Virus record (IMG/VR): IMGVR_UViG_3300032093_000026
Length of the DNA: 64,000 nt
Source of the DNA: an uncultured virus (IMG/VR IMGVR_UViG_3300032093_000026)
Taxonomy: Duplodnaviria; Heunggongvirae; Uroviricota; Caudoviricetes
Reading direction: 5' to 3' (one strand)
Position numbers and translations under genes: made by a program. Under the pieces are notes generated by a model. The model saw only the letters and a program-made list of their open reading frames with translations. It ran no database searches and had not been told where the DNA came from. This document shows positions 4,087-49,283 of this stretch, piece by piece. Every line of letters starts with the position of its first letter. Within the stretch, counting starts at the first letter, position 1.

Positions 4087-4411
4087 GATTAAATAATGTA
4101 TCTTTTAAGTAGGATTCTTGTTCTATTTCATTAGTCATTCCTTGTTCTTTAGCATATGATTGTATATCATGCATTAGTAAACTTAAAGTTATAAAATGAC
4201 TCATCCACTCCTGTGTAAATTGTGTATCATTTTTAACAACATAAGCATGATGCTTAAGTTCTGCATTAAAGAGGTTAATTTGTTCATCTGAAAGTCCATT
4301 TACCATATATGCTTGTAATTGCTGTAGTCTTACAACCATACCAGAAGTAAATACTACATTTATTTTAGCATCTTTGCGTATTATATGTATTTTCTCTGTT
4401 TTTTTGCTCAT
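4034..4411 (-). CDS. Hypothetical protein (lone antisense gene)
   Basis: 125-aa ORF filling the gap between + genes, with its own upstream TAAATTTG element. Confidence 0.7.
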   Translation of the reverse strand: MSKKTEKIHIIRKDAKINVVFTSGMVVRLQQLQAYMVNGLSDEQINLFNAELKHHAYVVKNDTQFTQEWMSHFITLSLLMHDIQSYAKEQGMTNEIEQESYLKDTLFNLIEEDNLFDDQSQSQPE

Positions 4412-26765: not shown

Positions 26766-26794
26766 AAAAAAGAGGAGATTTTCTCCTCTTTTTT
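26764..26794. terminator. Bidirectional terminator between replication and cargo blocks
   Basis: AAAAAAGAGGAGA-TTT-TCTCCTCTTTTTT. Confidence 0.85.
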
Positions 26795-29700
26795 AATATC
26801 CAGTTGCTTTTTTATAATACTCTATTCTATTTAGATTACTCAATATTGGTAATACTTTTGTTACTCTTAATAAAGTTCTTTCACCATCATATTCTATTTG
26901 ACCTTTATCATCTCGTGTCTCTAACATATAATTATACACAGCTTGTACAGCTTTCCCATAGTTTACTGCTGTTCTTATTATTGGAAAAACATTTGCTTGT
27001 AGTTCTGCTGCAGAACTTGGGCTCATGTAATATGTTAAATCTCTTCTTAAATCATGAAGCTGTCTTAATATAAGTAGATTGTATAACTTTTTGCTTTTAT
27101 CGTCATCTGGTACAGCTGCTTTTAATAAAAGATAAGCTGTCCATATTGTAATTATTATTTGAAATTCTTTAGCTGCTTTACGTATATTAGCTATTTCCAA
27201 CTGATCTTCTAAATCAAGCTTATCAGAGCCCATTAATGCTTTAGCCATTAATGGAACCATTTTAAATTTTTTATCTAATAATAATCTACCAAAAGTTCTG
27301 TAATAACCTTCTTCATCTCTTTGTAAAAGAGCATCTCTATGTCTTGGATCAAACCTCACACCAACTGTTTCTGGAAGCCATGATTTAAAAAGCATTAAAA
27401 CTCTTCCAACAGCATTACCCTTAGCTTTAATATGCACATCCTTACCTGTAGCCCCATGTAGTTTATTTGCAAGCTGTCTATATCTTAACAAACTATCTAA
27501 ATAATACTCTTCAAATGATTTATTACCATTTTTAGAAGCATCCCATTCACCATATTTTTGTACATCATATTCTCTATCTTCTGTAATTGCATCTATATAG
27601 GATACTTCTTTACCATCTTTTGTTTTTATTTTTTCAAATTTCATAGCTGACAAAAGTGTTTCAGCTTTAAAATGATAATCACCAGATGCTAACCAGGTAT
27701 AAGCTTTTGGTATCATTTCTCTAAACTTATCAACTGTTGTTTTTTTATTCACCATAGCTTTCAGATACATCCCATCCTCACCTTCTGCTAAACCTGCATC
27801 ACTTAATAAACCAAAAATTAATTTTGTCATTTTAGTTTGATAAGTACCCATAGAAAAATACTTACCCGAAGATTCTATAATAGTTTGATTAGCCCAAATA
27901 AGCTCTTTCATAGTATAGTCTCTTCTAGATGCAGCATGTATACGATTGTTAATCTTACCAACAAGTAAGTTTCTTATAGCTGAAAAAGGAGAAAAACCTA
28001 ATGCTATTAAACGTGTATTAGCAACAGCACTATCTAAGGTTTTTGTTACAGAAAAGTTTCTTCCACCTAAACTATAATATTCTCTTTCTTTTTCTTCAAC
28101 TTTCTGTTCTAGCTCTTCTCTTTCTTTTTCTGAAAGTTTATCATCATCTAGTTTTTTATTTAATTCTTTAATTTCATCTACAAGAATTTTAGCTTTTTTT
28201 GCAGTTTCATTTTTCCAACCACCAAAAGTTGCTAATTCTTTCCAATCATAAAAAAGCTTTTCAGATTTATATATCTCATCTTCTCCTTGAATACCATAAA
28301 AACTTTTCATAACTGTATAGTCAACTAATGACTTAATACTTGTTGCATCTTTATCTCTTTTTTCTAACTTTCCTAATTTTTTATTTTTGACATATGTTCC
28401 TTCTGTACCTTGTACAATATCAACCATTGTCTCAATTTCAGCTTTAACAGTATTTTTATGTTTATATGCTAAAGCCATATCACTAAACATTTTAGCAAGA
28501 AGCACCATATCTCGTGATCTTTCATTTATAGGAACACTTTCATTTATAAATCTTGCTTCAAAACCTCTACGTTCTTTTTTAGTATAAGCACCTAATTCTG
28601 GTTTTCTTTCAAAATTTGCAACTGTAAATGCTTTTGTAAACCAATCACCTAACCCTGCTACTGTTTCTTTCATATTTGTAAAAGCATATTCTTTTGCTAA
28701 CCTATCAGCAAGTACAGGAACAAAATTAGGACCTAAATCTTCAATTTCTTCTTGTGGTAGCCAATGTAAACTATCGTTAATAAACTTTACCCACCAGTTA
28801 TAAAAATTATGAAGCTTTGGGTTATTCATTATTCTGCTGAAATTTTCATCATAGTATTCAGTGGGCACACCTTTAATCATTTTAGCAGCAATCAAATATG
28901 AATATTTAGCACCACCATATGCTGTAACTTTTTCATTTTCAGTAAACTTTTGTTCCATATATTTCAATGGATTATTAAGGTCATCAAATTCTTTTAATTT
29001 CATATCAACATACTCTTCAAAAGTCATTGATTGTGGAACAACACTTGGATTCTTTACAGCTTCGTTTTCAATATCATATCTAAATTCTTCCATAGCTTCC
29101 TCAAATTTTTCAAATAATTTTTGAGATTCAGCTATAATTTGATCAATTTCTAATTTAGTAAAACCTAAATTTTTAAGTTTAGCTACTTCATCATTTCTTT
29201 GTGCATCAGTATATTCACCTGGCTTTAAAAAATATAAAGAATTAAAAGCAACTGTATTAGCTTCATTCCAAGCATTAAATCTTTGCCAAGCTTTTTTAAT
29301 AAGAGCTTTGTCACCGTTTGCTTTTTCAATGTCTTTACGAAGCATTGTATTATTAGACCTTCTAGCATCTATAAACTTTTTACTATATCTAGTTGCAAGG
29401 TTTAATGTATCATTACCATCTTTGTCCTTTTCCACTTTAAAAAAGATATTAAAGCCATTTTTCTTTATTTCTTCAATATCTTTTATTTTGTCGTATTCTA
29501 AATCTATTTCAACAAAATTCTTATTGTGTTCTATATTTATTTTGGTATTTACTTTCTTAATTGCATAAGCAATCTCATTAGGTAAAGCAATTCCAGATGT
29601 ACCAAGTTCACGAAACCATTCTGTTAATAAGTGAGTGTCTTTCATTTTAGTAATCTCATTCTCACTTAATCCTGTTGCAGCTTTTACAAGTTCAATAGCA

Positions 29701-30275
29701 ATTCTTCTAGATTGATCACTTAAATCATGAAATTTAGCGTCTACTTCTTGAACTTTTTTTCTTATTCTTTCACTCTTAATATCTGTAGAACTTTCAATAC
29801 CTAAAATTGAATATAGACTTGACCATGTTTCAACAATACTATTTGCAAATTGTAAGTCATTAAATGTAATTTGATCACTTTTGTACATTGCTTCAACAAG
29901 ATCAGCATCAATCATTGCGGTATCTAATATAAAATCTAATTGTTTATCTACATCGGCTTCATTAAGATCTGAGATGGTCTTAGAAATATCTTTCATTATT
30001 TTTCTATACTCAGTCTTCTTTTGATTTTTTTGTTCTTTAGTTAGTTTTGGATCATTTCTAACAGCATCCATTGAAGCTCTTGCATCTCTATATCGCTCTT
30101 TTAACATATTATTAGTTTCCATTAAAAGATCAGATACTTTTTTCTTTTTGGTAGTAGCAATAGATTTAAAAATATTATTTATCCCACCAAACTCTGTAAA
30201 ACTATTTTCTGAAAGAACTTTAATAAGCTCTTCTTTAGTATACATTCTACCATTATATTCATACTGACAAGCCAT
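26793..30275 (-). CDS. Large virion cargo/ejection protein (1160 aa)
   Basis: Helical, with a C-terminal hydrophobic segment; last gene after the vRNAP, as in crAss-like cargo operons. Confidence 0.7.
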   Translation of the reverse strand: MACQYEYNGRMYTKEELIKVLSENSFTEFGGINNIFKSIATTKKKKVSDLLMETNNMLKERYRDARASMDAVRNDPKLTKEQKNQKKTEYRKIMKDISKTISDLNEADVDKQLDFILDTAMIDADLVEAMYKSDQITFNDLQFANSIVETWSSLYSILGIESSTDIKSERIRKKVQEVDAKFHDLSDQSRRIAIELVKAATGLSENEITKMKDTHLLTEWFRELGTSGIALPNEIAYAIKKVNTKINIEHNKNFVEIDLEYDKIKDIEEIKKNGFNIFFKVEKDKDGNDTLNLATRYSKKFIDARRSNNTMLRKDIEKANGDKALIKKAWQRFNAWNEANTVAFNSLYFLKPGEYTDAQRNDEVAKLKNLGFTKLEIDQIIAESQKLFEKFEEAMEEFRYDIENEAVKNPSVVPQSMTFEEYVDMKLKEFDDLNNPLKYMEQKFTENEKVTAYGGAKYSYLIAAKMIKGVPTEYYDENFSRIMNNPKLHNFYNWWVKFINDSLHWLPQEEIEDLGPNFVPVLADRLAKEYAFTNMKETVAGLGDWFTKAFTVANFERKPELGAYTKKERRGFEARFINESVPINERSRDMVLLAKMFSDMALAYKHKNTVKAEIETMVDIVQGTEGTYVKNKKLGKLEKRDKDATSIKSLVDYTVMKSFYGIQGEDEIYKSEKLFYDWKELATFGGWKNETAKKAKILVDEIKELNKKLDDDKLSEKEREELEQKVEEKEREYYSLGGRNFSVTKTLDSAVANTRLIALGFSPFSAIRNLLVGKINNRIHAASRRDYTMKELIWANQTIIESSGKYFSMGTYQTKMTKLIFGLLSDAGLAEGEDGMYLKAMVNKKTTVDKFREMIPKAYTWLASGDYHFKAETLLSAMKFEKIKTKDGKEVSYIDAITEDREYDVQKYGEWDASKNGNKSFEEYYLDSLLRYRQLANKLHGATGKDVHIKAKGNAVGRVLMLFKSWLPETVGVRFDPRHRDALLQRDEEGYYRTFGRLLLDKKFKMVPLMAKALMGSDKLDLEDQLEIANIRKAAKEFQIIITIWTAYLLLKAAVPDDDKSKKLYNLLILRQLHDLRRDLTYYMSPSSAAELQANVFPIIRTAVNYGKAVQAVYNYMLETRDDKGQIEYDGERTLLRVTKVLPILSNLNRIEYYKKATGY

Positions 30276-30278
30276 AAT

Positions 30279-33200
30279 TTAGCATTTAATTTTAATTGAT
30301 AAAGCTTTTACAATGTCTGAAAGATTATCTGAAATATTTTTTTCTCTAATCTCTTTTGTAACAATTGATTTTTGTATTGAATTTTGATCTGTTTTATTAC
30401 GAGATTGAATAAGTCCTACAATTTTTGTTACACCTTCTTTAAGAACCGAGTCTTCTTTAATATTAATGTTAAGAAGTTTAAGAAGATCAGCAAGCATGTC
30501 CATGATTCTATCAAGAACACTTTTCTTACCATCATATGTAATGTTATTCATAAACTCTTGAAACCCTGAGTCTGTCATCAACATACTCACAAAATCATGA
30601 ATATTAGTTAATCCATAATACAATGATTTGTCTTTTGCTGACAGCATTCCATCTTCTCTATTCACTTGATCCATAGCTCTTTGTAAAGCAGGACCGTGAA
30701 CTGGATCTGATAAAAGTTTTTGTTGTACAGCTTTAAAAAGATCATTAAGATCTTCAACCCACTTTCTTTGTTCACTGCTTAAGGTTTCTGGTCTAGCCAT
30801 CAACAAATCAGCTGTTAAATGATGCATAAGCTCATGAACAATAACATCATGTAAACTTTTCACTGCACCGTCTAAATCAAATGAATTATTTTCTTGTAAA
30901 ATTAATTCAGGATTGATTGATATAGTTTTTGTAAAGCTATTGTATTCTCCAGGATTTTTCAAACTTCTGTTAATAACAATTTTAAAAGGTGTTACAATCC
31001 CTGTTTTACCAATCATCATTAACAAACTCTTATTAAAACTATTTGTTTGCTTATAGAGCCTGTTTAAAAAGTCTTTACTATTAGTTTCTGTATCCTTACC
31101 TTGGAATAAAGCAGTTATTGCGTTATCCATAGCATCATTCATTAATGAATTTAAATTCAATTCAGTAGGATCAACTATGTCACGAACAGATGTAGTTTCA
31201 CCAACAACAGGTGCTACAGATGTAGAAGCAGGTTTTACTGCATTATCAAGTTTAGTTTTAGATTTATTGTCGTCTCTAATTGCTCCTTGAAACACTTCTT
31301 GGTTATGAATTATTCTAGAACCGCGAGGTTTTATGACAATTAATGTACCACTAGTTCTTGTCAAAGAAACATACATAGAACTAAATATATCATCTTGATT
31401 AATTTGAGCATTTTGTCGAGCTTGTTTTACATTATAGTCACCTACAATAACATTTTTAATACTATTACCTTGTGCAGTGTGAGATGAACCTACATACGAA
31501 GGTGTAAATGGCATTTTTTTACTTGTAAGTCCTCTTAATTCTGCAGATATATTTTTAAACTCACGATAATGCATGCTAAAAGTTGCCAAAACATTTCCAG
31601 TTTTTGCATCTTTTATTTTTATATCTTCTTGTCTAGAAGTTTTAGAATTGTATTTACCCATTTCTACACTCAAACCAAGAGGTTTTCTATAACCACGTAT
31701 TTTATTCTGTCTATTGTATAATAAAATATTTTCTGTAGTAACATCAAAGTCAGGTAAATGTCTTCTTAAATCACTAGATACTACATCCTTAATTGATTCA
31801 ACATTACTAACAATATCTATTATTTTATAACGAGACCTAGGTTTTATTATACCTCCAGATACATTAAAAACTTCTCTATCTCGATTAAAAGGAACTTTTC
31901 TTTCCTTTAGTAATGCCTCTAGTTTTTCATCTGAAGTTTTATATTGAAACTCAGATCCTCTCATTTCTAATGCATCAGTAAACTCAACATAGTCTCCATT
32001 TGAAAAGTTTCTATGATCTACTTGTTCAATCTGTTTACCAATCTTTAAGAAATATAATTTTCTAATTTTATCAGCTAAATTTATTGTATTTGGATTTTCA
32101 ACTCTATTATAGTGCACCCAAAACATTCCATAAGGATTATTATTTTGAGATAGAAAATCTGTATAATCGTCTATAACACCAACTTCATTGTCAACAACAA
32201 GCATATTTTCTGTTGACTTATTTGTTAACGCATCATACTTATCAAATGAAAGTTGTCTAGGTTGTTTACCTTCTTTTGTTCTATTAATATTATCTATTAT
32301 CTCATTACCTACAGAGTCATAAATCTGATGTAATAATTTATCACCAGATCTCATTACCTGAGTAAGTTCTTTTGTTTTTTCTTTATTTAAAAGAAGGGTT
32401 GAAGATATAATACCTTTGTTAACAAATGCATTTTGTTGTTCACCAATTGGTCCCAGCTGACGATAGTCACCCATAAAAATAAATATAGGCATTTTAAAAC
32501 TATGTCCATTTTTTAAATCATATGCTGTTCTCTCAAGCATATCTTTAATGTCTTGTGTAGTTACCATTGATGATTCATCTACAATAATAACATCAGGTGA
32601 GCTAAATGCTGGTTTATATTTTAAACCAAGAGCATAGTCTTCCGTAGAAGCCATTACTAAGTTTCCATTTTGATCAATCTTGTTTCTTCTTACAGCTGAT
32701 GGTATTGTATTTACAGTGCCATCATTTGCTTTTTCAGAGTCAAGTCCAAGGGATTCTTGTAATACAGTTGCAGCTGTATGACTTGGTGTTAAATACATTA
32801 TACTAACACCTCTATATTTATTACCTGAATCTAAGCTATCCATAATAGCTCTAATAACTGTTGTTTTACCAACACCACCTCTACCAGCTAAACCAATCAT
32901 ATTATCCCACATAACTTTAGGAATAACACCACTAAACTTTATAGATAAAGGATCTAAGAAAGAAACTGTATTTTCTAATTCTTCAACACGAACTCTTTTT
33001 GAGTCTTTTAATATTTTTTCTACGTTTGCTTTAATAAAGTTGTAAGCTTCTTGCTGACCATCATTCATTAAGTATTTAGTGTTCTCATCCTCAAATATCA
33101 CCATATTGTTAGGATTAGAACCCTCTGGTACATTTATACGTTTACCAGTCTCAGGATCTAAAGATTTTTTAATTATTTCTTTAGAACTTTCTACTATTTC

Positions 33201-36200
33201 TGTATCATTCTCTAATCTACCAGCAAGAGCTTTGTTTACTCTATTATGTATGTCATCACTTGTAATTTGTGTGCCATATGTTGATTCTTGTAAAGAATAA
33301 ATTTCTCCTGCAATATCAACATAGTATTTAGGTTTTGTTGGCATATCTGTCAATGTAACAACATTTTCAGGATATGTCTCAACTTGGTAAGCTAATGTAA
33401 CTTTATTATAAAGCGACATGTCTTCAACTTCTTTTGTTTTTACACCATCTTTATCTGTGTAAAAAACTTTAAAACCTTCTTCAATACTTCCTTCAACAAT
33501 AAAGTTTGAATTTTTATATCCTATCAAAGTAGAAGGTTGTTCATCAATTTCTTCTTCAGATGTAACTATAGATTCACGACTTTTGTAAGGCTCGTTTGTT
33601 CTTACTTCAAAAGCTTTTGGTAATATAATATTATCAGGAATACCAAACTTATCATTCATTCTTCTAAACAAATCTTTCATTTGTTCTACACTTCTTCCTG
33701 CAAGTTTTGTTCCTATTTCTGTTACATAGTATTTATTATCAGGATTATTTAACGCCTCAATTCTTAAAGCATTTAAATCTTCAATAGTCATTTTATCCAT
33801 AGCTTTTTTATTCTCTTCTGTAAGCTTAGGATAAACAGTAAGTTTATCATCCTGGTACATTTTAGTTCTAATAGCAAATGATCTACCTTGTAAACCACTT
33901 GCTTGACCTGTAATAGCACCAAAATCGTCAACAGCTGCTTTAGCAGCACCTAATCCATGAACACCTTTATCATTAGATCCAAAGACAAAGTATCCATTTT
34001 CAGGTAGATTTTCTTTAGTAATTTTATCTAGTGTAGTTTCTCTTTTTAATTCTTCTTTTACAACTTCTTTAGTTTTACCAAGTGTATTATTATATACATC
34101 TCTAATAGCTTGTTTAGCTGCTTCTTCAATTTCAGGTCCTTTGTATTGCTGTCTTTGCTCCCATTGACCTGTTTCTTTATTTTTAACATTATAAGCTTCA
34201 ATATCTCTACTACCAACACCAGCAAAATTTCTAGTTAATTTAGGTGTTTCAGTTTGAACAAACTGTTTACCATCATATTTAAACCATGCACGGTTGTTTA
34301 AATCCCATACATAAACAGGTTTATTTAATTTTATACCTAATTGTACAGCAACATTTGTCCCACCTTTAACTTTATCAAACTTATATGATTTAATAGACTT
34401 AGTAGGATCAGTTAAATTATCTGGTTTTGATTTATCTATAGATGAATCTAACTCAGCAATAGCATACACAGCATCTGCATTAGCTACTTGATAATAGTTT
34501 CTCACTTTAAGATTACCTTCTGTTGTATCTGGATAATCTTCACCAAGAAGTCTTTTAACCTCAGCTCGTGCTTTATCCATTTCTTGTTTTGATAAAACAG
34601 TTGCTTGAACATTACTATCTCTTAATTTTTTAGAAAGTCCTTTATTACTTTCTTCTCTATAGTGTTTATGATTTTGTACGCCAAATTCTCTACCTATTAC
34701 GTCCCAGAATGTATCAGCACCATAAGCGCCTCCAGAATGATTTACATAAACTGCAGGGTTACTTAAATCAAATGCTTCTACTTCTAAACCTTGTACCAAT
34801 TCTCTAAGATCACTTTCTTCTTTTGCAAAATCAGCTGCACTTACATCAACTTGATTATTCTTAATAGATGATTCAAGTCTAAGATTGTTAAAATCATATT
34901 CTTTAACACTTTTATATCCAAGAATATTAATTCTTTCATACTCAGCAATACCATTCTCAGGTATTGCCTCACTTACTCTTTTATATAAGTAATTAACTGA
35001 CCAGTCATTTTGAGGAAAGAAATCACTTGTATAACTATCATTAATTAGTATATAAGCAGGATATTTAAAGTCTACATTTCTTTCAGCAGCTATTTTTCTT
35101 TCTTTGTCATTTAACTTTTCAATTTTCAATGATTTAACAATAGACTGTGTTTTTTCATTAACTTGAAAATCCCCCACTTTAATTTTAAAATTTTTGACAT
35201 CTTTTAATGTCGCTGCATTATTTATTAAAGGTTTAAGAGATTGTTTAAACGCATTGTCTTTATCATTATTAGTTGAATAATTAAATTTAACACTATACTC
35301 TTCAGGATTATTCTGAACAATTTGATCTTTTAAAATATTAACACCAAATTGATTACCTAGAGTAAAGTTAAATTCATTATCAAAATCAGCAATTGAAGTT
35401 TGAAAATCTATATCTCTCATGTAATAATCAACAGGTATAAATCTTTGAATGTTACCAGCATCTCCTGTAGCATATGGATATAATGCAAGTTCTCTTGCAA
35501 TCTCTCTAACTATTTCATTTTCTGAAGTGGCTAGTTCATAAAAACCAGAAAGTATTTCTTTCTCGTTCATGTCTGTACCAAATGGTGCTTTAAAAGATAT
35601 TAAATAAGCATCACCTTTATATTGAGGTTCAACTTCAATATATTTTAAAAAGCCATTTGTAATAAATTCAGGATTTTGCTGAAGCTCTAATATACTTTTA
35701 CCTAAAGATGTATCACCATTTAAAAGCCTACTTCTGTCTGTTTTTAAGTCGCCAAATAACTCTAAGTTAGGCATTGTGTACATATATGCTTTTATAGCAT
35801 TAAAGGCGGTTTCATAAGCACGAATGTATCTTTCTCTTCCCAAGTCTTCTTTGTCAAGTCCCATGTCGTTTAATAAACTAACAACTATATTTTCAAGTGT
35901 TCTACCTGTACTAACAGGAAACAACTCTTGATATATAGACTGAGCTTTTATAAGAGAATATAAAATTGAATGCCCAATTTCACCTTTTGGAACAATTGAA
36001 ATAAGACCACTATCAGAATCTTTATTTACTGCGCCTGCAACATTTGTAATATCTATAAATACAGATGATTTAGATAGTTTATTTAACTGATTTATCTTCT
36101 GTAGTGTTGTAAATACATCTGCACCTATACCTTTAGTATATGTATAAACAGATCCAAGTATAGTCATAAACTCTTTACCAATCTCATCTAATCTTGAGAA

Positions 36201-41948: not shown

Positions 41949-41954
41949 TCTTAT

Positions 41955-44900
41955 TTATTTTTTAGATTTTGGCTTTGTATTACATTTATCTTTTTCTTTC
42001 TCTACTTGTTCATCAGTCATTTGATTTGCAATTGCTATACGATCTAGTTGTGCAAAAATATCATCTGGATTTACAGCTGCTTGTTCACTAGAAACTTCTG
42101 GTTTTTCATAATAAAGATCTTCCATTGCAAATGGGTTATCATATGGACCCACTGTTTTTGGATTAATTACTCCTTGTTCTACATCATTTTTTTTATATTC
42201 TAAACTTCTTCCGTATTTATCTTTTTTAGAAATAACTTCATATTTATTTCCTTTTTCATCATACAATACATCTCCCACCTTTGCAAATCTTAATTGTGTT
42301 TTTGCAGATTTCTTTGTTTGTTTAACGGTAGGTTTTACTTCTGCAGCTGCTAATTCTGCATCAACACTAGCTTTAATTTCACTAGTAAGTATTGTAGAAT
42401 CATTAAGTATTTCTTGTTCTTCTTTAGAAAAGCTAGTGATTATTTTACCAGCTTTTAGTTCTTTGTAAAGTTCTCTAGCTAGTTCTGCATCATATTGAGC
42501 ATTAATTCTTCTTTTTTGCTTTCCATAATCATCATCATACATACCTCCTTCATCGTCATATTTTTTAAGTGCTGCTTTTCTTCTTTCTTCTATATTAGCT
42601 TTTACATTAGAAACCGAAGCTGTAGCAGGTTTAGCTCCTTCTAAAGCAGCTAGTTCTTTTTCTAGTTTTGCTTCAATAGCTCTATGACGTTTACCATCTT
42701 CTGTTTCTGGTGCAGCCCAACTTCCTGTAAAAGAATTTTGCCATTCTGTTATAAGATTTCTTACTGACTCAGGTACATATTTATTGTATAATTTAACTTT
42801 TTGCTCCTGTGATGCTTGTTCACTTTCACCAGGTCTATAAGTAAATGTACCATCTCCCCAATCTTTCTTTTCAGAAAAAAGCTCAACTCTACCTTTACTA
42901 TTTCTATCAATAACTAGTAAAAACTCTTTACCACTGTCACCAATTACCTCTACGCTTACTTGTGTACCCTGTTCTCTAATCCCTGCAGCTACAATAGCTT
43001 TCTTATCAGAAACTACAGGAGCTATTGGTTGTGTTAAAGCAGCTAGTTCAGCATCGTATATTTTATCAATTTCTTTTTCTAAAAGTTCTTTAGTTTCAAA
43101 ATCAGTTAACTTGTATTGTTTAAAAGTATTAGTATTTTCTTTTTTATGAACTCTTATCACAGTTCCCCATCGCTGACCTTTAGTTCCTAATACAGAAACA
43201 ACAATATCTTCTTTTGCATCAGTTCTAAAATCTTCAATTTCTTTTCTTCTTTTTTCTATATCAGAAACAGGAGCTGTAGGAGCTGGTGTTACAACAGGTG
43301 GTTTTTCAAATGTATCACCTACAACAACTTCTTCTTCTTTTGGTTTTACAACAATAGCGTCTGTATTGGATGACATTTTAATCACAGGGTTAGCAAAATA
43401 CACCCAATCACCATCTTTGTTTTTAGAAGGAATACCTTCTTCTACATATGTCATTGCATTCTGCATGATGTATTCATTATACGTCATGGGTGTAATTTTC
43501 ACTTCATTGTTTTGTATTGTAACAAAAGGTACTTTTTTAGTGTTATTGATACCAACAAGATTAGGATTTCTTGGATCAGTAAATTTAACTGTTGTTAAAA
43601 GATTTTGCATCAAAGAAATAACATTACCAGGAAGTTCACTAGATAAAACAATTGGTTTACCATCGTTATTGAACCATTCACCATCTGCAGTTTTTACTTG
43701 CAAATATAAATGTCCTTGTGCTGTAATATTAAGTCTTGCTAATCCATTAGCTACATCACTACCGTTACCAATTTCAGAAAGCTGTTCCTTTTTAAGACGT
43801 GTAATAAATTGATCAACATATCTTTGTAACACTCCAATATCAGGTTTACCTTCTGACATTTCCATACCTAAAGCTTTGTAAATTCCTTCAACAAGCTTAG
43901 GATTCATTGTTTCACCTACAAATGCTTTCCAAGCTTCAATTATAAGCTTAGCTTTATTCTCACTCACCTTTGGAAGTTTAACATATGTAGGAAAAAATGT
44001 ACCACGAGGTGTTGGTAATAACAAAACAGATACACCACTTTGGTTATCTATTTCTTCTGTAAATGATTTTGTATTTTCAACTTTATCAATAACTACACCT
44101 GCATCTACTTGTAGCTCACCATTTTTTACAATAGCAAACATTCCATGGCGATTGTCAGTTCCACCATCTGCTATTTTTGGATTAACTCTATCTTTAATTA
44201 CACCAGGATCTGTTGTATTTCTTAAGATACCTATTGACTTTCCTTCAACTATTCCATTCATTTCAAAACTTGGATCATTGTTAAAATTATCCAGTATAAA
44301 TTTACGAAATTTTTGATTCTTTGCAACTTCTTCTTTTACCACGGTCGGCAAGTCCATATCTAACTGATCTTCAGGAACAACAATATTTACATACTTGTTA
44401 AATATTTTATGGTTAATCCACTGTGGTTCATGGAATGTTCCAATAAGTTTTTCTTTACCTTCTATTGTAGCATATACACCAATTGGAGCATAGTCATACA
44501 TTTCAGGATTAACTTTTCCATCTGGACCAAAAATGTTTCCAGCATCATAAACATCCCCAGTTATTCTATTTGTTACAGTTGGGAAATCTTTTGTCATCAC
44601 TCTATAAGTCAGTGACGAACCTTCAGGAAAGTTTCCTGTCGCAATATCAAAAACATAGTTTGTATTTACACCAGTTCTAACTTGCGTAACTACATCACCA
44701 GTAACTCTAAATTCAGCTATATCAGTTGTATTAGCTAATGAGTTACTTGGAGCAGTTTGTCTTCTTCCTTCTTGATAAGTTACATTAGCTGTATTATTAT
44801 CAGACCTTGATGATTGTAATCCTGTTGTATCAAAACGATTATTCTGAACAAAGTCTCTAACCGCAGATGGATCATCTTCAATAAACTCAGAATATCTAAT

Positions 44901-47900
44901 TTTATATGTACCGTTTTCAAGTTTTCCTAAAAAGTCATCAATCAAAGCTTTATCAAAACTAGTTTCACCTGCATTATTAGTAACAATGTAGTTTACTGCT
45001 TTACCAGGAATAACAGATGCTATTTTGTATATATTACCTTGATCATCTGTAAACTCATTATTTACTTGTATTTGATCAAAATAATTAATTTCAACATCAG
45101 GTTTTGGTTCTGCTTTCTTTAAACTACTTGCTTCTACAAATCTTTTAACACCATCAGATGCAACTAGTGGATTACCTTCTAAATCTTTTAAATGATAAAC
45201 CACTCTACCATCTTGTGTTTTAGTTATTTCAGCTACGGTATATTCTTTATCTTCAAAAACAACATTGTCATCTATTTTATATTCTTCTGTTTTTGGTTTT
45301 GGACCACCTTTTAATCTTTCATATCGCTGTCTTTCAAATTTACCGCTTGTTTTTTCCCATATTTCATAAGGCGGTGTTTCTCTATCTGCAGCATCATTTG
45401 ACGCTTTAACCTTATTATATTGTTGTTGTAAATATTCTTCAACAGTATTAGGTATTTCTTGTCCTTCAACGTCTTTTGCACGTTTAAGTTTACCTGTTTT
45501 TAAATTATCTAAAAATTCTTCTTCAGTAAATCCAATATTATCATCAGTTCCATCTAACGCATTTAATAAAATTAAATCACCTAATGGAGCTATATCATAT
45601 TTTTTACCATTAAAAATATAATTTTCTGTAAAATCAATTCCTGAAGTTTCTGTTTGTTGCTGCTGTTGACCTTGTTGACCTTGCTGTTGTTGACTTTCTA
45701 ACTCTTTTCTTCTTTTTTCTTCTTCTTCTTTTTTCTTTTCTTGTTCAATTTCTTCTAAAAACTTTGCTCTCATTACAACAAGATCATCAGTTATTAATTT
45801 TTCATTAATAGCCATATCAATAATCTCGCGCTTAGAGTAATTTTCAATTTCTTCTTCTGTTAATCCATTTTCTTTTAAAAGTCTAGCAGCAGATGTATAA
45901 ATGTTATCACTTAGATATTCATCCACTTTATAAAATATATCATCTAAAACAGATGGTTTAAGCTCAAGATTAAATACTCTTTTAAAGAAATCACTAAGTG
46001 CATCTACAAATTCAACCCAAAGTGATTTTTTTCCTGTTAATCCAGGTACTGATGTTAGCTCTTTCTGAAACTCTGGATTAGAATAAGCCTCAGCTAAAAA
46101 TTCTTGAATGTTTGTAAAACCATAATAACTAGTATCAATACCTCTATCTTCTAAGGTTTTCTTAGCGTAGTTGTAAAGTTTTTCTATATCTCTTGTAAAC
46201 TTGCTGTTATAAGCAAGCTCATCACTAGTTAAAAGGTGAATAATCTCATGAAGCATAACGCCCTCAAATGACATTTTACCTTCATGTAAATCAGGATCAA
46301 TCGTTATTGTATTACTACCTAATGTGTAAAAAGCTGGAGCTATAGTTTGATTTCTATCAAATTTTACTTTTGCGTCATCTTTTATACTATCATACAAGCG
46401 AGCTAAAGCCATTCTTAGATAAGGATCTATATATGGATTTGCTGCCATTTTTTGTATCATCGGTTTAAGAGCAACAGTCTCGCCATCTTGTACATCATAG
46501 TATTCCATTATATCTTCTGCAATCCTATCATCATCTTTCATTCTATACAAGAAAGTGGCGTTTGTTCCTTTTTTTACCCAAGATGTACCTTCTTCATATT
46601 TTTTACCTTTTCTTTCTTCTCTTCTTTTTTTTCTTTCTTCATCTGTAAACCTTTGACTCTTACCTCTTTCTGCACGATCAGCTATTTCATTAAAAGGTTT
46701 TACAATTACATTATCAATATATTCTTTAAAGTTAGCAGCACCGTTTTTAGTATCAGCATACTTTGCCCATTCTAATCCAAGTTGTCTAATTTGATTTTGT
46801 AACTGACTTGATCTTTGTTGTCTACTATATAATTTGTTCCTTAAAATAACATTTTGTACTTGATTTCTATTTGCTTTTTCATACTGATACAAACCATCTG
46901 GACCTTTTTTAATTGTCTTTAATGCTTCTGGATTATCTTTCTTTAAGGTGTCTAATTCTTTTTGAAGTTCGTTTAATACTGTTTTAGCTAAAGCTTTTTC
47001 AATAGGTTTTTTATCACTAATCTCCATTCCTTCAATATAATCCTTTTGAGAATCAATTCTTAATTGTAAATCATTTAATTGATCTGCAAGATCATCTGAT
47101 AAACCTATATCTTCTTTAGCTATTTGATTAAGCATTTCATTTTTAAACTCATTATTATCAGCTGTTGTTTCATTTACAAGATTTCTATATATTGCAAGTC
47201 TAGTTGCAAGCTCAGTCATTTTGTTTTTTCTAGCCTCTTCTTCAGGAAGCATTCTTCCACGCCAGTCTTTTTTAAATATAATATCATCGTTCAAAATTTT
47301 ATTTTGAGCGATCATTTGTTTAGTTAAATTTTTATATTTTTCAATTTGTTGTGGTGTAGTTTCATCAGGAGTAAAACCTAATTTAGCAAGCTCACCTGCA
47401 TCAGTTCTTCCAACAGCATCAAGTTTACCAAGTAGTGTATTTTCTAAACCTAATTGAATATGTGCATTTACAAATTGAGCAAAGGCACTATCTCTTAATA
47501 AATCTCTATGAAATTTATTTTCTACAGTGTTTGCAGCTTCAATAGCGCTATTTACATTATTAAAATTGTTAGCAACATTAAAAAGCTTACTTTGATTAAT
47601 TGTTGGTTTACCTTTTTCGTCCAAAATAATTTGCTCTTCTGATACCTCATTACCATCTTTGTCTTTAGTTGTTACCATTTTTGTTTCAAAAATGTTACCA
47701 AACTTTAACCAGTTTTGTTGGGCTTCATTATAAAACTTTACAGCTGCTTTAGTAAACTCATCATTTCTTTTTGCTTGTTTAAGTTCACTATAAACACTCA
47801 TCCCTCCACCTAAAATACCACCTAAACCAATACTTATAGATGCTTCAGGATCTTTACCTGTAACAGCATTTAATGTTTGATTCCAGTATTGATTAGCTAA

Positions 47901-49283
47901 AGATTTAACATCTTTAAGTTCAGCCATCTTACCTTCAACGCCAAATTTTTCATTAACTCTTTGAATAGCTAACTGAGCATTTTCTTCTACAAAACCTTCC
48001 ATCAAAGTACCTTTACCTAAAGCAGTAAGAAAAATTCCTGGTTTACTATTTAAAAGTTTACCTATACCTGTATTAGATAATTCATATGCTAATTCATCAC
48101 CTAACCTAGTACCTCCCATTAAACCTTTTGAAATAGGTTTAGTAGCAGCTTTACCCCACATGCTATTCAGCAACTTTAATTCCCATAAATTTGTCGCAGA
48201 TAGTATAGCCGCATTTGCCATGAATGTTTCTTTCATGTGACTAGCAGCTATTAACTTTTTTTCTTCTTTTGTATAAGGTAATCCAGTGTTTGGGTTAATT
48301 CTTAAAAAACCTCTTTCATCTGTAGTTAAACCTTTTTCAATATTTTTACCTACTTCAGTGGTTTCAAACATAGATTCACCACCTACAGAAAGAGCCCATT
48401 GTGAAACTCTATCTAAACGATTAGCCCAAATAGATTGTGCCTTTGTTAAATAATTTTGTACAGACGCTGCTCCTTCAATTGCATTATTAGCTGCACCTGC
48501 CCCTAATTTATAACCTGATAAACCTCTTGCTATTTTTTCTCCAACACCTAATCTAGAAAATGCCATACCAGGAGCAAAAGCTGACACCATAAAAGCAACA
48601 CCATCTGTAAAATCATTTGTCCAAAAATTTAAATCATGTGTTGCTCTCCACCAAAAGCCTGCACCTTGTGCTTCAGCTTTTTCATACACAGGAAGCCAAT
48701 CATTTTTTAGTTGTTCATCTAAATGACCAAAAACTTGAGCCATTGCATTTTGAGATGCATTTTGGATGTAATTATCTCCCCAGTTAGTTGGGTCTATCAG
48801 CCCTAAAAGAAAACCTGTATTTTGACCTATTTTAAATCCAGTAGACAAAGGAAGTCTAAGTAAACCTTTACCTAAATTAGCCCATACACTTTCATTTTGA
48901 GCCATCCAATCTTCATTATTTCTATCATATTGAAAGTTAGGACCTATTCTTTTACCTGGCTCAAAACCACTATCATCATATCTACGTACTTCTGATAATG
49001 GTGTTTTAAAAGGTTCTGTACTAATACCAGATCTTGCAAATTGATCTGTGCGTTCTACGTATTGTCTTGCAGCAACAAAAGCAGCACTCATATTAATAGT
49101 GGTACTATCTGTAGTGAGATCAGGAATTTTACCAAACTTACTCTCACTAGTTAATGCTTCAAGATTTAGTATTCTTTTAGAAGAATCATCAAATTTGTCT
49201 AAATTTGATAAATCGTCAAGTGTTAAATCAAGATTTAAATCTTTAACCGATGTATTTGATACATAGTCGTTAAATGCTGACAT
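41955..49283 (-). CDS. Giant cargo protein (2442 aa) with hydrophobic segments, zincin domain and helical repeats
   Basis: Gly-rich hydrophobic N-terminal segments; HEIIH...QEFLAEAYSNPEFQ; DAELAA repeats. Confidence 0.75.
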   Translation of the reverse strand: MSAFNDYVSNTSVKDLNLDLTLDDLSNLDKFDDSSKRILNLEALTSESKFGKIPDLTTDSTTINMSAAFVAARQYVERTDQFARSGISTEPFKTPLSEVRRYDDSGFEPGKRIGPNFQYDRNNEDWMAQNESVWANLGKGLLRLPLSTGFKIGQNTGFLLGLIDPTNWGDNYIQNASQNAMAQVFGHLDEQLKNDWLPVYEKAEAQGAGFWWRATHDLNFWTNDFTDGVAFMVSAFAPGMAFSRLGVGEKIARGLSGYKLGAGAANNAIEGAASVQNYLTKAQSIWANRLDRVSQWALSVGGESMFETTEVGKNIEKGLTTDERGFLRINPNTGLPYTKEEKKLIAASHMKETFMANAAILSATNLWELKLLNSMWGKAATKPISKGLMGGTRLGDELAYELSNTGIGKLLNSKPGIFLTALGKGTLMEGFVEENAQLAIQRVNEKFGVEGKMAELKDVKSLANQYWNQTLNAVTGKDPEASISIGLGGILGGGMSVYSELKQAKRNDEFTKAAVKFYNEAQQNWLKFGNIFETKMVTTKDKDGNEVSEEQIILDEKGKPTINQSKLFNVANNFNNVNSAIEAANTVENKFHRDLLRDSAFAQFVNAHIQLGLENTLLGKLDAVGRTDAGELAKLGFTPDETTPQQIEKYKNLTKQMIAQNKILNDDIIFKKDWRGRMLPEEEARKNKMTELATRLAIYRNLVNETTADNNEFKNEMLNQIAKEDIGLSDDLADQLNDLQLRIDSQKDYIEGMEISDKKPIEKALAKTVLNELQKELDTLKKDNPEALKTIKKGPDGLYQYEKANRNQVQNVILRNKLYSRQQRSSQLQNQIRQLGLEWAKYADTKNGAANFKEYIDNVIVKPFNEIADRAERGKSQRFTDEERKKRREERKGKKYEEGTSWVKKGTNATFLYRMKDDDRIAEDIMEYYDVQDGETVALKPMIQKMAANPYIDPYLRMALARLYDSIKDDAKVKFDRNQTIAPAFYTLGSNTITIDPDLHEGKMSFEGVMLHEIIHLLTSDELAYNSKFTRDIEKLYNYAKKTLEDRGIDTSYYGFTNIQEFLAEAYSNPEFQKELTSVPGLTGKKSLWVEFVDALSDFFKRVFNLELKPSVLDDIFYKVDEYLSDNIYTSAARLLKENGLTEEEIENYSKREIIDMAINEKLITDDLVVMRAKFLEEIEQEKKKEEEEKRRKELESQQQQGQQGQQQQQTETSGIDFTENYIFNGKKYDIAPLGDLILLNALDGTDDNIGFTEEEFLDNLKTGKLKRAKDVEGQEIPNTVEEYLQQQYNKVKASNDAADRETPPYEIWEKTSGKFERQRYERLKGGPKPKTEEYKIDDNVVFEDKEYTVAEITKTQDGRVVYHLKDLEGNPLVASDGVKRFVEASSLKKAEPKPDVEINYFDQIQVNNEFTDDQGNIYKIASVIPGKAVNYIVTNNAGETSFDKALIDDFLGKLENGTYKIRYSEFIEDDPSAVRDFVQNNRFDTTGLQSSRSDNNTANVTYQEGRRQTAPSNSLANTTDIAEFRVTGDVVTQVRTGVNTNYVFDIATGNFPEGSSLTYRVMTKDFPTVTNRITGDVYDAGNIFGPDGKVNPEMYDYAPIGVYATIEGKEKLIGTFHEPQWINHKIFNKYVNIVVPEDQLDMDLPTVVKEEVAKNQKFRKFILDNFNNDPSFEMNGIVEGKSIGILRNTTDPGVIKDRVNPKIADGGTDNRHGMFAIVKNGELQVDAGVVIDKVENTKSFTEEIDNQSGVSVLLLPTPRGTFFPTYVKLPKVSENKAKLIIEAWKAFVGETMNPKLVEGIYKALGMEMSEGKPDIGVLQRYVDQFITRLKKEQLSEIGNGSDVANGLARLNITAQGHLYLQVKTADGEWFNNDGKPIVLSSELPGNVISLMQNLLTTVKFTDPRNPNLVGINNTKKVPFVTIQNNEVKITPMTYNEYIMQNAMTYVEEGIPSKNKDGDWVYFANPVIKMSSNTDAIVVKPKEEEVVVGDTFEKPPVVTPAPTAPVSDIEKRRKEIEDFRTDAKEDIVVSVLGTKGQRWGTVIRVHKKENTNTFKQYKLTDFETKELLEKEIDKIYDAELAALTQPIAPVVSDKKAIVAAGIREQGTQVSVEVIGDSGKEFLLVIDRNSKGRVELFSEKKDWGDGTFTYRPGESEQASQEQKVKLYNKYVPESVRNLITEWQNSFTGSWAAPETEDGKRHRAIEAKLEKELAALEGAKPATASVSNVKANIEERRKAALKKYDDEGGMYDDDYGKQKRRINAQYDAELARELYKELKAGKIITSFSKEEQEILNDSTILTSEIKASVDAELAAAEVKPTVKQTKKSAKTQLRFAKVGDVLYDEKGNKYEVISKKDKYGRSLEYKKNDVEQGVINPKTVGPYDNPFAMEDLYYEKPEVSSEQAAVNPDDIFAQLDRIAIANQMTDEQVEKEKDKCNTKPKSKK

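What the first reader, a model, noticed from the sequence alone, without database searches (positions are those of the whole stretch)
26793..49283. Head-to-tail terminal cysteines in otherwise Cys-free giant cargo proteins: a possible disulfide-linked ejection chain
By eye, about 7500 aa across three adjacent proteins contain only four Cys. The 2442-aa protein has one near its C-terminus (KDKCNTKPKSKK). The 3889-aa vRNAP has Cys3 (MHCP) and a final Cys (KIKC). The 1160-aa protein has Cys3 (MACQ). The two outer ends have none, exactly as expected for a linear A-B-C chain in gene order. Cys avoidance in ejected proteins is known from N4 vRNAP. Inference: terminal disulfides or metal bridges link the cargo for ordered packaging and threading through the tail, then release in the reducing cytoplasm.
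Basis: partly seen in the sequence, partly recalled or inferred. Interest (0 to 1): 0.82.

Follow-up and report, generated by a model that had tools for sequence, protein, structure and literature searches.

The report
Cysteine-tipped chain of crAss cargo proteins
Three giant proteins that this crAss-like phage packs into its particle, with its RNA polymerase in the middle, have no cysteine except one at each end that faces the next protein, and relatives keep this rule where the genes are separate and drop it where they are fused, which points to untested end-to-end disulfide links.

Summary
The three ORFs (2442, 3889 and 1160 aa) hold 4 Cys in 7491 residues, at A-2434 (9th from the end), B-3, B-3889 (last residue) and C-3. 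Other ORFs of the window have 0.98% Cys.

B is a crAss-type virion RNA polymerase giant: DFDID motif, and a match to PDB 6VR4 at E 9e-22.

The rule holds widely:
- 44 of 44 A homologs have a C-terminal Cys and none an N-terminal one.
- 70 of 73 polymerase proteins not fused to C end in Cys, against 0 of 65 fused ones.
- 58 of 65 complete stand-alone C proteins have Cys at position 2-5.
- 24 of the 30 fusions without an N-terminal Cys, which are the longest (up to 6244 aa), have no Cys at all.
- phi14:2, crAss001 and eight other annotated phages fit.

One such bond has been seen. In cyanophage A4, cryo-EM shows gp27 Cys1715 bonded to gp26 Cys5 (PMC12002296), and I found each to be its protein's only Cys.

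Best reading: head-to-tail disulfides make the split genes act as one thread. The bond and its role in ejection are untested. My literature searches found no description of this for crassviruses. This scan had already noted the pattern in at least 16 other genomes.

The parts
41955..49283 (-). Protein A, 2442 aa. First link of the chain. Sole Cys at residue 2434, none near the N-terminus. Homolog of phi14:2 gp078 (GenBank numbering).
   Evidence: BLASTP to phi14:2 gp078 at E 1e-20. 44 of 44 homologs have a Cys within the last 15 residues, 0 of 44 within the first 10, and 40 of 44 have exactly one Cys.
41982..41984 (-). TGT codon of A Cys2434 (..EKDKCNTKPKSKK*), ninth residue from the end.
   Evidence: In 4 of 4 fetched relatives the A homolog has its only Cys 7-15 residues from the end.
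30279..41948 (-). Protein B, 3889 aa. Virion RNA polymerase giant with added domains. Cys only at residue 3 and at the last residue, 3889.
   Evidence: Of 76 homologs, 54 have both terminal Cys, 14 only the C-terminal one (polymerase region starts late, so A is probably fused), 2 only the N-terminal one (C domain fused), and 6 neither or irregular.
41940..41942 (-). TGT codon of B Cys3 (MHCPNINSPEWN). The motif C-P-N follows the Cys.
   Evidence: B homologs begin M-x-C-P-N in most cases. CPN follows the N-terminal Cys in 59 of 180 proteins that have one.
37344..39731 (-). Two-barrel RNA polymerase region of B (residues 740-1535), with DFDID at 1525.
   Evidence: phmmer to PDB 6VR4 (phi14:2 polymerase), E 9.4e-22. 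DFDID found. tblastn finds 126 phage records, Crassvirales and Flavobacterium phages.
32259..32900 (-). AAA_30 / PIF1-like helicase domain of B (residues 3017-3230).
   Evidence: Pfam PF13604 E 9e-15, PF05970 E 4e-7.
30822..30836 (-). HELMH (HExxH zincin-type) motif of B, residues 3705-3709, in the last folded domain before the Cys-tipped tail.
   Evidence: This region is homologous to residues 144-381 of phi14:2 gp076 (E 1e-8). The preprint 10.1101/2020.03.07.982082 says that protein carries a zincin-like protease domain.
30282..30284 (-). TGC codon of B Cys3889, the last residue (..LSIKIKC*).
   Evidence: 11 of 11 related loci that show both gene ends have a Cys in the last 3 residues of the upstream ORF. 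The AF2 model puts it on a low-confidence tail after a helix.
26793..30275 (-). Protein C, 1160 aa. Last link of the chain. Sole Cys at residue 3, none near the C-terminus.
   Evidence: 31 of 32 near homologs have Cys3; the other is an 828-aa truncated form. 58 of 65 complete stand-alone representatives have Cys in the first 8 residues.
30267..30269 (-). TGT codon of C Cys3 (MACQYEYNG). It lies 12 nt downstream of the last base of the B Cys3889 codon.
   Evidence: C3 is an invariant column of alignment A1.

Best explanation
A, B and C are the RNA-polymerase cargo block of a crAss-like phage. They are proteins packed in the capsid and injected with the DNA. They are kept free of internal cysteine.

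The single Cys near the C-end of A pairs with Cys3 of B, and the last residue of B (Cys3889) pairs with Cys3 of C. After the particle leaves the reducing cytoplasm, these pairs oxidise to two head-to-tail disulfides.

The three gene products then behave as the one 5000-6200-residue polypeptide that some relatives encode as a single gene. Because each Cys sits within a few residues of a chain end, the joined product stays nearly linear. It could therefore leave N-end first through the tail as one thread, and it would fall apart into three proteins when the host cytoplasm reduces the bonds.

Shown here: the Cys pattern, its conservation, and its loss on gene fusion. Shown by others in an unrelated phage: one such bond. 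Inferred: the bond in crassviruses, its timing, and its role in ejection order and release.
For: 1. The pattern in the window is exact and far from chance.

2. Every gene break has a facing pair.
- A/B: 4 of 4 fetched relatives.
- B/C: 11 of 11 loci that show both ends.
- All 10 annotated phages examined fit: FpV4, phi14:2, crAss001, cr116_1, LMMB, crAss002 (with its start re-read), cr109_1, cr60_1, cr114_1 and cr4_1.

3. The number of terminal Cys tracks the number of breaks.
- Among 138 polymerase-bearing proteins, 70 of 73 without a fused C domain end in Cys, against 0 of 65 with one (Fisher 3e-36, not corrected for relatedness).
- An N-terminal Cys is present in 87 of 94 proteins whose polymerase region starts by residue 1650, and in 1 of 44 where it starts later.
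- 24 of the 30 fused proteins without an N-terminal Cys have no Cys at all, up to 6244 aa.

4. Outer ends never carry Cys: 0 of 44 A N-ends and 0 of 63 C-ends of fused forms.

5. On a tree of the C domain, split and fused states change at least 20 times. Among 15 independent pairs the Cys goes the same way in about 8, the other way in about 1, and does not differ in about 6 (median sign-test p 0.039).

6. In crAss001 the A homolog gp47 lies on the opposite strand from gp50/gp49 and still has its sole Cys at 2339 of 2341. The signal is therefore in the protein, not in junction DNA.

7. There is a direct precedent. The cyanophage A4 cryo-EM structure shows a disulfide between gp27 Cys1715 and gp26 Cys5 (PMC12002296, passages). 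On KF356198, gp27 is 1717 aa with Cys1715 as its only Cys, and gp26 is 1114 aa with Cys5 as its only Cys.

8. Disulfides do form in crassvirus particles, in the tail and in gp57 of crAss001 (PMC10172136, passages).

9. K/R make up 40% of the residues within 3 of the C-terminal Cys, against 13% overall. By inference this lowers the thiol pKa.
Against: - No bond has been observed in any crassvirus. The crAss001 atlas lists disulfides only in the tail and gp57, and the cargo was not resolved.
- The independent-pair test is only modest (p about 0.04), with about 6 of 15 pairs uninformative and about 1 contrary.
- 7 of 65 apparently complete stand-alone C proteins lack the N-terminal Cys. Their first 400 residues align inside fused giants, so they may be pieces of fused genes, but I could not see their DNA.
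- 6 of 65 fused B-C proteins hold some Cys between the polymerase region and the C domain.
- cr4_1's fused A-B protein has Cys2180 close to where gp47's terminal Cys would align.
- One B homolog (P0206) lacks the N-terminal Cys and remains unexplained.
- 'A fused' is inferred from a late polymerase start and two BLAST matches. My A profile found no hit among the stored proteins.
- Gut crassviruses are less Cys-poor: LMMB's fusion has 7 internal Cys and cr116_1's B has 8.
- The particle forms in a reducing cytoplasm and many hosts are anaerobes, so the time and place of oxidation are unknown.
Confidence: 0.65

Rival explanations
1. The same head-to-tail bonds exist, but their job is static. They lock a folded cargo or pre-ejectosome core in the capsid and fix 1:1:1 stoichiometry, as proposed for A4 gp27-gp26. 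The proteins leave separately, or after the bonds break.
For: In A4 the bond sits in a folded pentameric ring, where the C-terminal helix of gp27 inserts into a cleft of gp26. The AF2 model of B's last 300 residues ends in a helix followed by a short tail. [quoted passage not shown]
Against: This does not explain why the Cys must lie within 1-15 residues of a chain end, nor why all internal Cys are purged. Fused relatives make one continuous chain, which must leave as one thread.
Confidence: 0.17
2. The facing Cys are joined by something other than a disulfide, such as a shared metal ion or another thiol-based covalent link made by a phage enzyme.
For: Conserved motifs follow the N-terminal Cys (C-P-N in 59 of 180 proteins), which could be a recognition site. 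A zincin-type HELMH domain lies just before B's tail.
Against: Only one Cys per end is conserved, and no conserved His or second Cys lies nearby. phi14:2 and crAss001 lack the CPN motif but keep the Cys. The one solved case is a plain disulfide.
Confidence: 0.07
3. Each terminal Cys binds a different partner: another copy of the same protein, or the portal, capsid or tail. It does not bind the neighbouring cargo protein.
For: Other small cargo-block proteins also end in a lone Cys with no evident partner: LMMB 861 aa Cys860, crAss002 gp30 Cys550, and the cr116_1 833-aa protein whose last residue is Cys. Several copies of each cargo protein are thought to be present.
Against: The count of terminal Cys is always two per gene break, at facing ends, and the outer ends have none: 0 of 44 A N-ends and 0 of 63 fused C-ends. 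Homotypic or structural anchoring would not predict that asymmetry.
Confidence: 0.06
4. There is no link at all. The terminal Cys act after injection, as a redox switch or catalytic thiol, or are simply tolerated at chain ends where they cannot hinder unfolding.
For: Cys avoidance in ejected proteins is known without any link, for N4 gp50 and DEV gp71-73. The phi14:2 polymerase is thought to need activation.
Against: Mere tolerance would not give invariant columns (C3 in A1; 44 of 44 in A), nor the facing-ends-only rule. Schitoviridae ejection proteins have no terminal Cys either.
Confidence: 0.04
5. The TGY codons belong to a nucleotide signal at the tight gene junctions, such as translational coupling, and the Cys are a by-product.
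For: The junctions are very short: 6 nt between A and B, and 3 nt between B and C.
Against: crAss001 gp47 is not next to gp50 and lies on the other strand, yet keeps its terminal Cys. The C-terminal Cys lies 1 to 15 residues from the stop codon. A 358-nt gap separates the pair in L021.
Confidence: 0.01

Closest known systems
Cyanopodophage A4 (Anabaena phage A-4L, KF356198) pre-ejectosome pair gp27-gp26, PNAS 2025, PMC12002296
   Same: The upstream ejection protein has its only Cys three residues from the C-end (1715 of 1717). The product of the next gene has its only Cys at position 5. Cryo-EM shows these two joined by a disulfide (passages read).
   Different: It is one pair, not a three-protein chain, and has no RNA polymerase. 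There is no detectable sequence similarity to A, B or C (BLASTP E above 0.1; the C-family HMM finds nothing). The authors read the bond as stabilising a folded ring. The passages I read do not link it to cysteine avoidance or to gene fusion.
Crassvirales polymerase cargo block: phi14:2 gp67-gp66-gp65 (GenBank gp078-077-076; gp66 is PDB 6VR4) and crAss001 gp47/gp50/gp49
   Same: The proteins are homologous: B to 6VR4 at E 9e-22, A to gp078 at E 1e-20, and C to gp076 and gp49 at E 4e-5. All are virion proteins, and some phages fuse them into one polyprotein (preprint 10.1101/2020.03.07.982082, passages; PMC10172136). They show the same terminal-Cys pattern.
   Different: The texts I could read do not mention the pattern. 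The word 'cysteine' occurs 0 times in the preprint (listing) and 0 times in the atlas. The Nature version of the phi14:2 paper is not held. The window's B is much larger (3889 against 2180 aa) and carries helicase, DprA-like and zincin domains.
Cysteine-free ejection proteins of Schitoviridae (N4 gp50; DEV gp71, gp72, gp73)
   Same: These are giant virion RNA polymerases and companion proteins with Cys almost purged: 0.00075% against 0.865% in the proteomes (PMC11445570, passage). N4 vRNAP is described as beads on a string that leaves unfolded or loosely folded (PMC13434306, passages).
   Different: The polymerase fold is different (T7-like). It is one chain rather than three, and no terminal Cys are kept. 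In that reading Cys is only avoided, never used.
Single-gene fused forms of the same block (metagenomic proteins of 4700-6244 aa)
   Same: The polymerase region and the C domain occur in the same order. These are the covalent equivalent of the proposed chain.
   Different: The join is a peptide bond, not a thiol link. 24 of the 30 without an N-terminal Cys have no Cys at all.

Membership tests
Crassvirales-type virion RNA polymerase (phi14:2 gp66 family) | Sequence homology to the solved two-barrel polymerase | tested here: met
   phmmer of B against PDB chains finds 6vr4_A at E 9.4e-22, B residues 740-1535.
Crassvirales-type virion RNA polymerase (phi14:2 gp66 family) | DFDxD catalytic motif (named in the abstract of 10.1101/2020.03.07.982082) | tested here: met
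   DFDID at B residue 1525, the only such motif in B.
Crassvirales polymerase cargo block (three adjacent virion proteins) | Polymerase gene flanked by homologs of the two partner proteins | tested here: met
   win_A to phi14:2 gp078 at E 1e-20. win_C to phi14:2 gp076 and crAss001 gp49 at E 4e-5, and to cr4_1 and cr109_1 C proteins.
Crassvirales polymerase cargo block (three adjacent virion proteins) | The proteins are present in the virion and are ejected | not testable with these tools
   Known only for phi14:2 and crAss001, by mass spectrometry. Inferred here by homology.
Cysteine-suppressed ejection proteins (as defined for Schitoviridae in PMC11445570) | Cys frequency far below that of the phage proteome | tested here: met
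   4 of 7491 (0.053%) against 111 of 11,353 (0.98%) in other ORFs. Families: 27 internal Cys in 406,630 aa.
Cysteine-suppressed ejection proteins (as defined for Schitoviridae in PMC11445570) | Rare Cys lie in unconserved places or reflect annotation errors | tested here: not met
   The four Cys are conserved: invariant C3 in A1, 44 of 44 A homologs, and 70 of 73 unfused B homologs.
A4-type disulfide between consecutive ejection proteins | Upstream protein with a lone Cys a few residues from its C-end, and the next gene's protein with a lone Cys at position 3-5 | tested here: met
   A 2434 of 2442 with B 3, and B 3889 of 3889 with C 3. A4: 1715 of 1717 with Cys5.
A4-type disulfide between consecutive ejection proteins | The disulfide is physically present in the particle | not testable with these tools
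   This needs non-reducing gels, cross-link mass spectrometry or cryo-EM of virions.
A4-type disulfide between consecutive ejection proteins | Homology to A4 gp27 and gp26 | tested here: not met
   Best BLASTP E values are 0.12 and 0.71, and the C-family HMM has no hit. It is an analog, not a family member.
Polyvalent proteins of phages (multi-domain injected giants; family name recalled, not from a call) | Several unrelated enzymatic domains in one giant virion protein, including ART-PolyVal | tested here: inconclusive
   Helicase PF13604 and PF05970 pass their cut-offs. ART-PolyVal PF18760 scores 25 bits against a cut-off of 31.2. DprA-like PHROG 768 at E 3e-7. HELMH motif present.

The most novel reading that the evidence does not exclude
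Crassviruses, and by convergence other podophages such as A4, inject one pseudo-polyprotein thread of 5000-7500 residues whose segments are joined by reducible end-to-end disulfides. The rule 'two Cys per gene break, none elsewhere' would then be a readable code for the order of ejection, running A, then polymerase, then C, N-end first. The host's reducing cytoplasm would be the switch that cuts the thread and frees, and perhaps activates, the virion RNA polymerase. Gene fission and fusion of the block would be selectively neutral because a disulfide and a peptide bond are interchangeable.
Probability: 0.4. Interest if true: 0.85.

Novelty: new variant of a known kind. Interest (0 to 1): 0.75.

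Why it matters
How a podovirus-like particle passes megadaltons of protein through a narrow tail, and in what order, is open for crassviruses. These include the most abundant viruses of the human gut. [quoted passage not shown] The 2026 N4 paper calls the relation of the three crassvirus polymerase-associated proteins to the one-chain N4 vRNAP an open matter.

A conserved two-Cys-per-break rule gives a concrete, cheap test of both questions: gels with and without reductant, a re-search of existing mass spectra, or Cys-to-Ser mutants in phi14:2 or crAss001.

It also turns the known cysteine avoidance of ejected proteins into a positive design rule. It helps annotation too. It predicts true start codons, as for crAss002 gp33, and it tells whole genes from fragments in metagenomes.

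Tried and rejected
- **Single-protein locus scan.** The search for related loci with protein C alone found no relatives. An alignment query was needed.
- **Complex prediction.** Complex prediction of B's last 300 residues (alignment A2) with C's first 300 (A1) scored 0.27 and 0.16 against a mark of 0.32. The tool's verdict was 'no answer', and the controls were not run. I draw nothing from it.
- **A-family profile.** An HMM built from 5 A sequences, plus phmmer with phi14:2 gp078 and crAss001 gp47, found no hit among the 256 stored proteins P0001-P0256. 'A fused to B' therefore rests on the late start of the polymerase region and on two BLAST matches of gp47's C-terminal part to the cr4_1 and cr109_1 giants.
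- **Pfam, PHROGs and PDB sequence searches** gave nothing for A, apart from one weak hit to a PHROG of unknown function (E 1.6e-4), and nothing for C.
- **Junction-DNA signal** considered and rejected.
- **A fourth link through the upstream 750-aa protein** (Cys732) considered and rejected. Its homologs have 0, 0, 0 and 2 Cys, none of them within the last 25 residues.
- **Intein-like or ligation chemistry** was considered only as a thought. Nothing tested supports it.
- **Literature.** Searches found no paper that describes terminal cysteines of crassvirus cargo proteins. The Nature version of the phi14:2 paper is not held. Extended Data Table 2 of the crAss001 atlas, its list of disulfides, was not seen.
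Full report
**What is in the window.**
Only 6 nt separate A from B, and 3 nt separate B from C. An exact count gives four Cys in 7491 residues:
- A-2434, ninth residue from the end (..KDKCNTKPKSKK*)
- B-3 (MHCP)
- B-3889, the last residue (..KIKC*)
- C-3 (MACQ)

The N-end of A and the C-end of C have none.

**Is it more than chance?**
27 other ORFs of at least 150 aa in the window hold 111 Cys in 11,353 aa (0.98%). At that rate the chance of four or fewer Cys in 7491 aa is about 2e-26. The chance that four Cys fall one each into the four 9-residue facing-end windows is about 5e-11. Base composition does not explain the depletion: the two other reading frames of the same DNA hold 85 and 460 TGT/TGC triplets, against 4 in frame.

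**What the proteins are.**
B matches the solved virion RNA polymerase of the crAss-like phage phi14:2 (PDB 6VR4, E 9.4e-22, residues 740-1535). It carries the DFDxD motif as DFDID at residue 1525. It also has:
- a PIF1/AAA_30 helicase at 3017-3230
- a DprA-like region at 2401-2566
- a weak ART-PolyVal match at 80-199, below Pfam's cut-off
- an HELMH zincin motif at 3705

A is homologous to phi14:2 gp078. C is homologous to phi14:2 gp076 and crAss001 gp49.

This is therefore the polymerase cargo block of Crassvirales. According to the phi14:2 preprint (passages) and the crAss001 atlas (passages), its three proteins are in the virion and in some phages are fused into one polyprotein. The polymerase region finds 126 phage records by tblastn, all crassviruses, uncultured or unclassified phage records, or Flavobacterium/Cellulophaga phages.

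**Close and middle-distance relatives.**
- *C homologs.* Of 32 found by the word-indexed search, 31 begin M-[ASGP]-C. In 22 of these it is the only Cys. The one exception is an 828-aa truncated protein.
- *IMG/VR loci.* Of 20 loci, 11 show both the end of the upstream ORF and the start of the C gene. All 11 have a Cys in the last three residues of the upstream ORF (..IKTKC*, ..KCK*, ..NQCKS*, ..RPCKL*) and a Cys at position 3 or 5 of the C gene.
- Of the other nine loci: in two the C gene is cut at its 5' end; in three the upstream partner was not listed; in one (L021) a 745-aa ORF ending ..IINCI is followed 358 nt later by an ORF beginning MKNKC; and in three (L016, L018, L019) the C domain is part of a longer ORF of at least 1251, 2830 and 4190 aa with no Cys at all.
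- *A/B junction.* I fetched it in four relatives. In 4 of 4 the A homolog has its only Cys 7-15 residues from the end, and the B homolog begins M-[IL]-C-P-N.

**Cultured and annotated phages.**

| Phage | A | B | C | Note |
|---|---|---|---|---|
| phi14:2 | gp078, 1797 aa, only Cys is the last residue | gp077 (polymerase), 2180 aa, Cys3 and Cys2179 only | gp076, 1421 aa, Cys3 only | |
| crAss001 | gp47, 2341 aa, only Cys at 2339 | gp50, 2412 aa, Cys5, 1334, 2404 | gp49, 1349 aa, Cys5 only | gp47 lies on the opposite strand from gp50/gp49 |
| cr116_1 | 2556 aa, only Cys at 2555 | 2507 aa, Cys3 and the last residue, plus 8 internal | 1281 aa, Cys6 | |
| FpV4 | | gp32, 4287 aa, only Cys at 4286 | gp33 begins MAC | |
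| LMMB | 1957 aa, Cys1956 plus 2 internal | B-C fusion, 4070 aa, begins MSC, no C-terminal Cys | (fused) | |
| crAss002 | gp32, 2020 aa, only Cys at 2019 | gp33 fusion; annotated N-end has no Cys | (fused) | residues 33-35 of gp33 read MSC, so the true start is probably there |
| cr109_1, cr60_1, cr114_1, cr4_1 (Suoliviridae) | no separate A; probably fused into the giant | giant of 4272-4494 aa, Cys 3-4 residues from the end, none at the N-end | next protein has Cys at 3-5 | in-frame TAG read through |

The crAss001 case excludes a nucleotide signal at the junction. All ten records fit the rule. In gut phages, however, internal Cys are fewer than normal rather than absent.

**Wide sampling.**

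*C family.* A profile of the C family, run against 1.84 billion representatives, found 2534 proteins at E ≤ 0.001. I analysed the best 150. They hold 122 Cys in 406,630 residues, and 95 of those lie in the first eight residues.
- Of 65 complete stand-alone forms (Met start, 1000-1700 aa, no polymerase region), 58 have a Cys in the first eight residues, at position 2-5, mostly 3. In 50 it is the only Cys.
- The 7 without it have 0-1 Cys, and their first 400 residues align inside fused giants. They may be pieces of fused genes. I could not see their DNA.
- 11 short or non-Met fragments were set aside.
- Of 63 proteins with both a polymerase region and a C domain, none has a C-terminal Cys.
- 33 of those 63 have an N-terminal Cys (median length 3892 aa; polymerase starts at a median of residue 986).
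- The other 30 do not (median length 5155 aa; polymerase starts at a median of 2161; Mann-Whitney p = 3e-8). 24 of these 30 have no Cys at all, up to 6244 aa.

*B family* (76 proteins).

| Terminal Cys | Count | Comment |
|---|---|---|
| Both ends | 54 | |
| C-terminal only | 14 | polymerase starts at 2032-2796 |
| N-terminal only | 2 | both have a fused C domain |
| Neither | 3 | giants of 5291-6493 aa |
| N-terminal missing | 2 | P0201 is a start called 93 residues too late; P0206 is unexplained |
| Neither | 1 | weak hit, 10 internal Cys |

Pooled over 138 polymerase-bearing proteins, 70 of 73 without a fused C domain end in Cys, against 0 of 65 with one (Fisher 3e-36, uncorrected for relatedness).

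*A family* (44 proteins). 44 of 44 have a Cys in the last 15 residues, 0 of 44 in the first 10, and 40 of 44 have exactly one Cys. That is 48 Cys in 118,240 residues.

**Correcting for relatedness.**
I built a FastTree tree of the C domain with 146 rows. Fourteen rows had an ambiguous state and were left unlabelled. On this tree the split and fused states change at least 20 times.

Among 15 independent pairs on supported branches, the presence of a Cys upstream of the C domain goes with the split state in about 8, against it in about 1, and does not differ in about 6. The median sign-test p is 0.039, with a range of 0.02-0.18.

So the association survives correction, but only modestly. 6 of 65 fused forms hold some Cys between the polymerase region and the C domain. 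cr4_1's fused giant has Cys2180 near the place where gp47's terminal Cys would align.

**Precedent.**
A note from this scan pointed me to the 2025 cryo-EM paper on cyanopodophage A4. I read the relevant passages. [quoted passage not shown]

On the genome record (KF356198), gp27 is 1717 aa and Cys1715 is its only Cys. The next gene's product, gp26, is 1114 aa and Cys5 is its only Cys. Neither resembles A, B or C in sequence.

The kind of bond proposed here is therefore real in one unrelated phage. Disulfides are also seen in the crAss001 particle, though only in the tail and gp57. Cysteine avoidance in ejected proteins is documented for N4 and its relatives, which keep no terminal Cys.

**How it most likely works.**
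The simplest account of 'two Cys per gene break, at facing ends, none elsewhere, none in full fusions' is that the facing thiols are joined. The split products then form the same continuous chain that fused relatives make by peptide bonds.

Placing the Cys within 1-15 residues of the ends keeps the joined chain nearly linear. Purging internal Cys prevents cross-links that would block unfolding.

The crAss001 atlas expects ejection N-end first, with partial unfolding. The 2026 N4 paper describes that polymerase as beads on a string. A tied A-B-C thread would be the crassvirus counterpart.

Lys and Arg are enriched next to the C-terminal Cys (40% against 13%), which by inference would favour a reactive thiolate. 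The AF2 model of B's last 300 residues (mean pLDDT 67) shows a zincin-like folded part, then about 60 low-confidence residues with one helix and a 7-residue tail that ends in the Cys.

Three steps are inferred and not shown: oxidation after release from the cell, ordered exit as one thread, and reduction in the new host.

**Novelty.**
My seven literature searches found no description of this pattern for crassviruses. 'Cysteine' occurs 0 times in the phi14:2 preprint (listing) and 0 times in the crAss001 atlas. The Nature version of the former and Extended Data Table 2 of the latter were not seen.

The kind is known: cysteine avoidance, and one observed head-to-tail disulfide. What is new is the three-link chain around the virion polymerase, its spread over Crassvirales and the FpV4-like phages, and its exchange with gene fusion. 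This scan had already noted the same pattern in at least 16 other genomes. This window is one more clean instance.

**Verdict.**
Observation confirmed. Interpretation partly supported: the link is strongly indicated, but its chemistry and role are untested. Confidence in a covalent head-to-tail link is about 0.65.

Noticed in passing
L036 (Bacteroides phage crAss002, MN917146) 16809-16915: The annotated start of gp33, the polymerase fusion protein, gives MVLDYS... with its first Cys at 35. Residues 33-35 read M-S-C, like LMMB's MSCG start. The true start is probably 32 codons downstream of the annotated one.
   Followed up: partly
window 30822-30836 (B residues 3705-3709), and window A residues 971-1103: An HELMH zincin-type motif lies in B's last folded domain. 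This region is homologous to the N-terminal part of phi14:2 gp076 (the C protein there), and a related stretch occurs in the window's A (BLASTP). The same domain therefore sits in different members of the trio in different phages, as expected if break points move along one ancestral polyprotein.
   Followed up: partly
window 49321-51573 (-), 750-aa ORF: The single Cys lies at 732, 19 residues from the end, and looks like a fourth link. It is not conserved: the four homologs have 0, 0, 0 and 2 Cys, none of them within the last 25 residues.
   Followed up: yes
L035 5780-8365 (LMMB, 861 aa); L036 6114-7787 (crAss002 gp30); L040 21597-24098 (cr116_1, 833 aa); L001 4013-5809 (FpV4 gp30): Smaller proteins of the cargo block also carry a lone terminal Cys with no evident partner: ..KQSCR, ..FRCGGKKKIA, ..KKLC as the last residue, and MKKKC at the N-end. 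They may be further links, or links to something else.
   Followed up: no
N-termini of B and C homologs (proteins P0033-P0256; window 41931-41942): The N-terminal Cys is followed by P-N in 59 of 180 proteins that have one (C-P-N-x-N, in both B-type and C-type N-ends). B-C fusions often begin M..CNF.APN. Residue 2 is mostly Ala or Ser when the Cys is at 3 (88 of 141), so by inference the initiator Met is probably removed.
   Followed up: partly
L037, L038, L039, L041 (Suoliviridae giants): The giant ORFs hold 38-70 in-frame TAG codons and no in-frame TAA or TGA. This is the TAG reassignment already described for some crassviruses (recalled). The terminal-Cys rule holds under that reading.
   Followed up: partly
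window 26793-49283 (coding strand): Lys and Arg make up 40% of the residues within 3 of the C-terminal Cys across the families, against 13% overall. There is no such enrichment at the N-terminal Cys (10%).
   Followed up: partly
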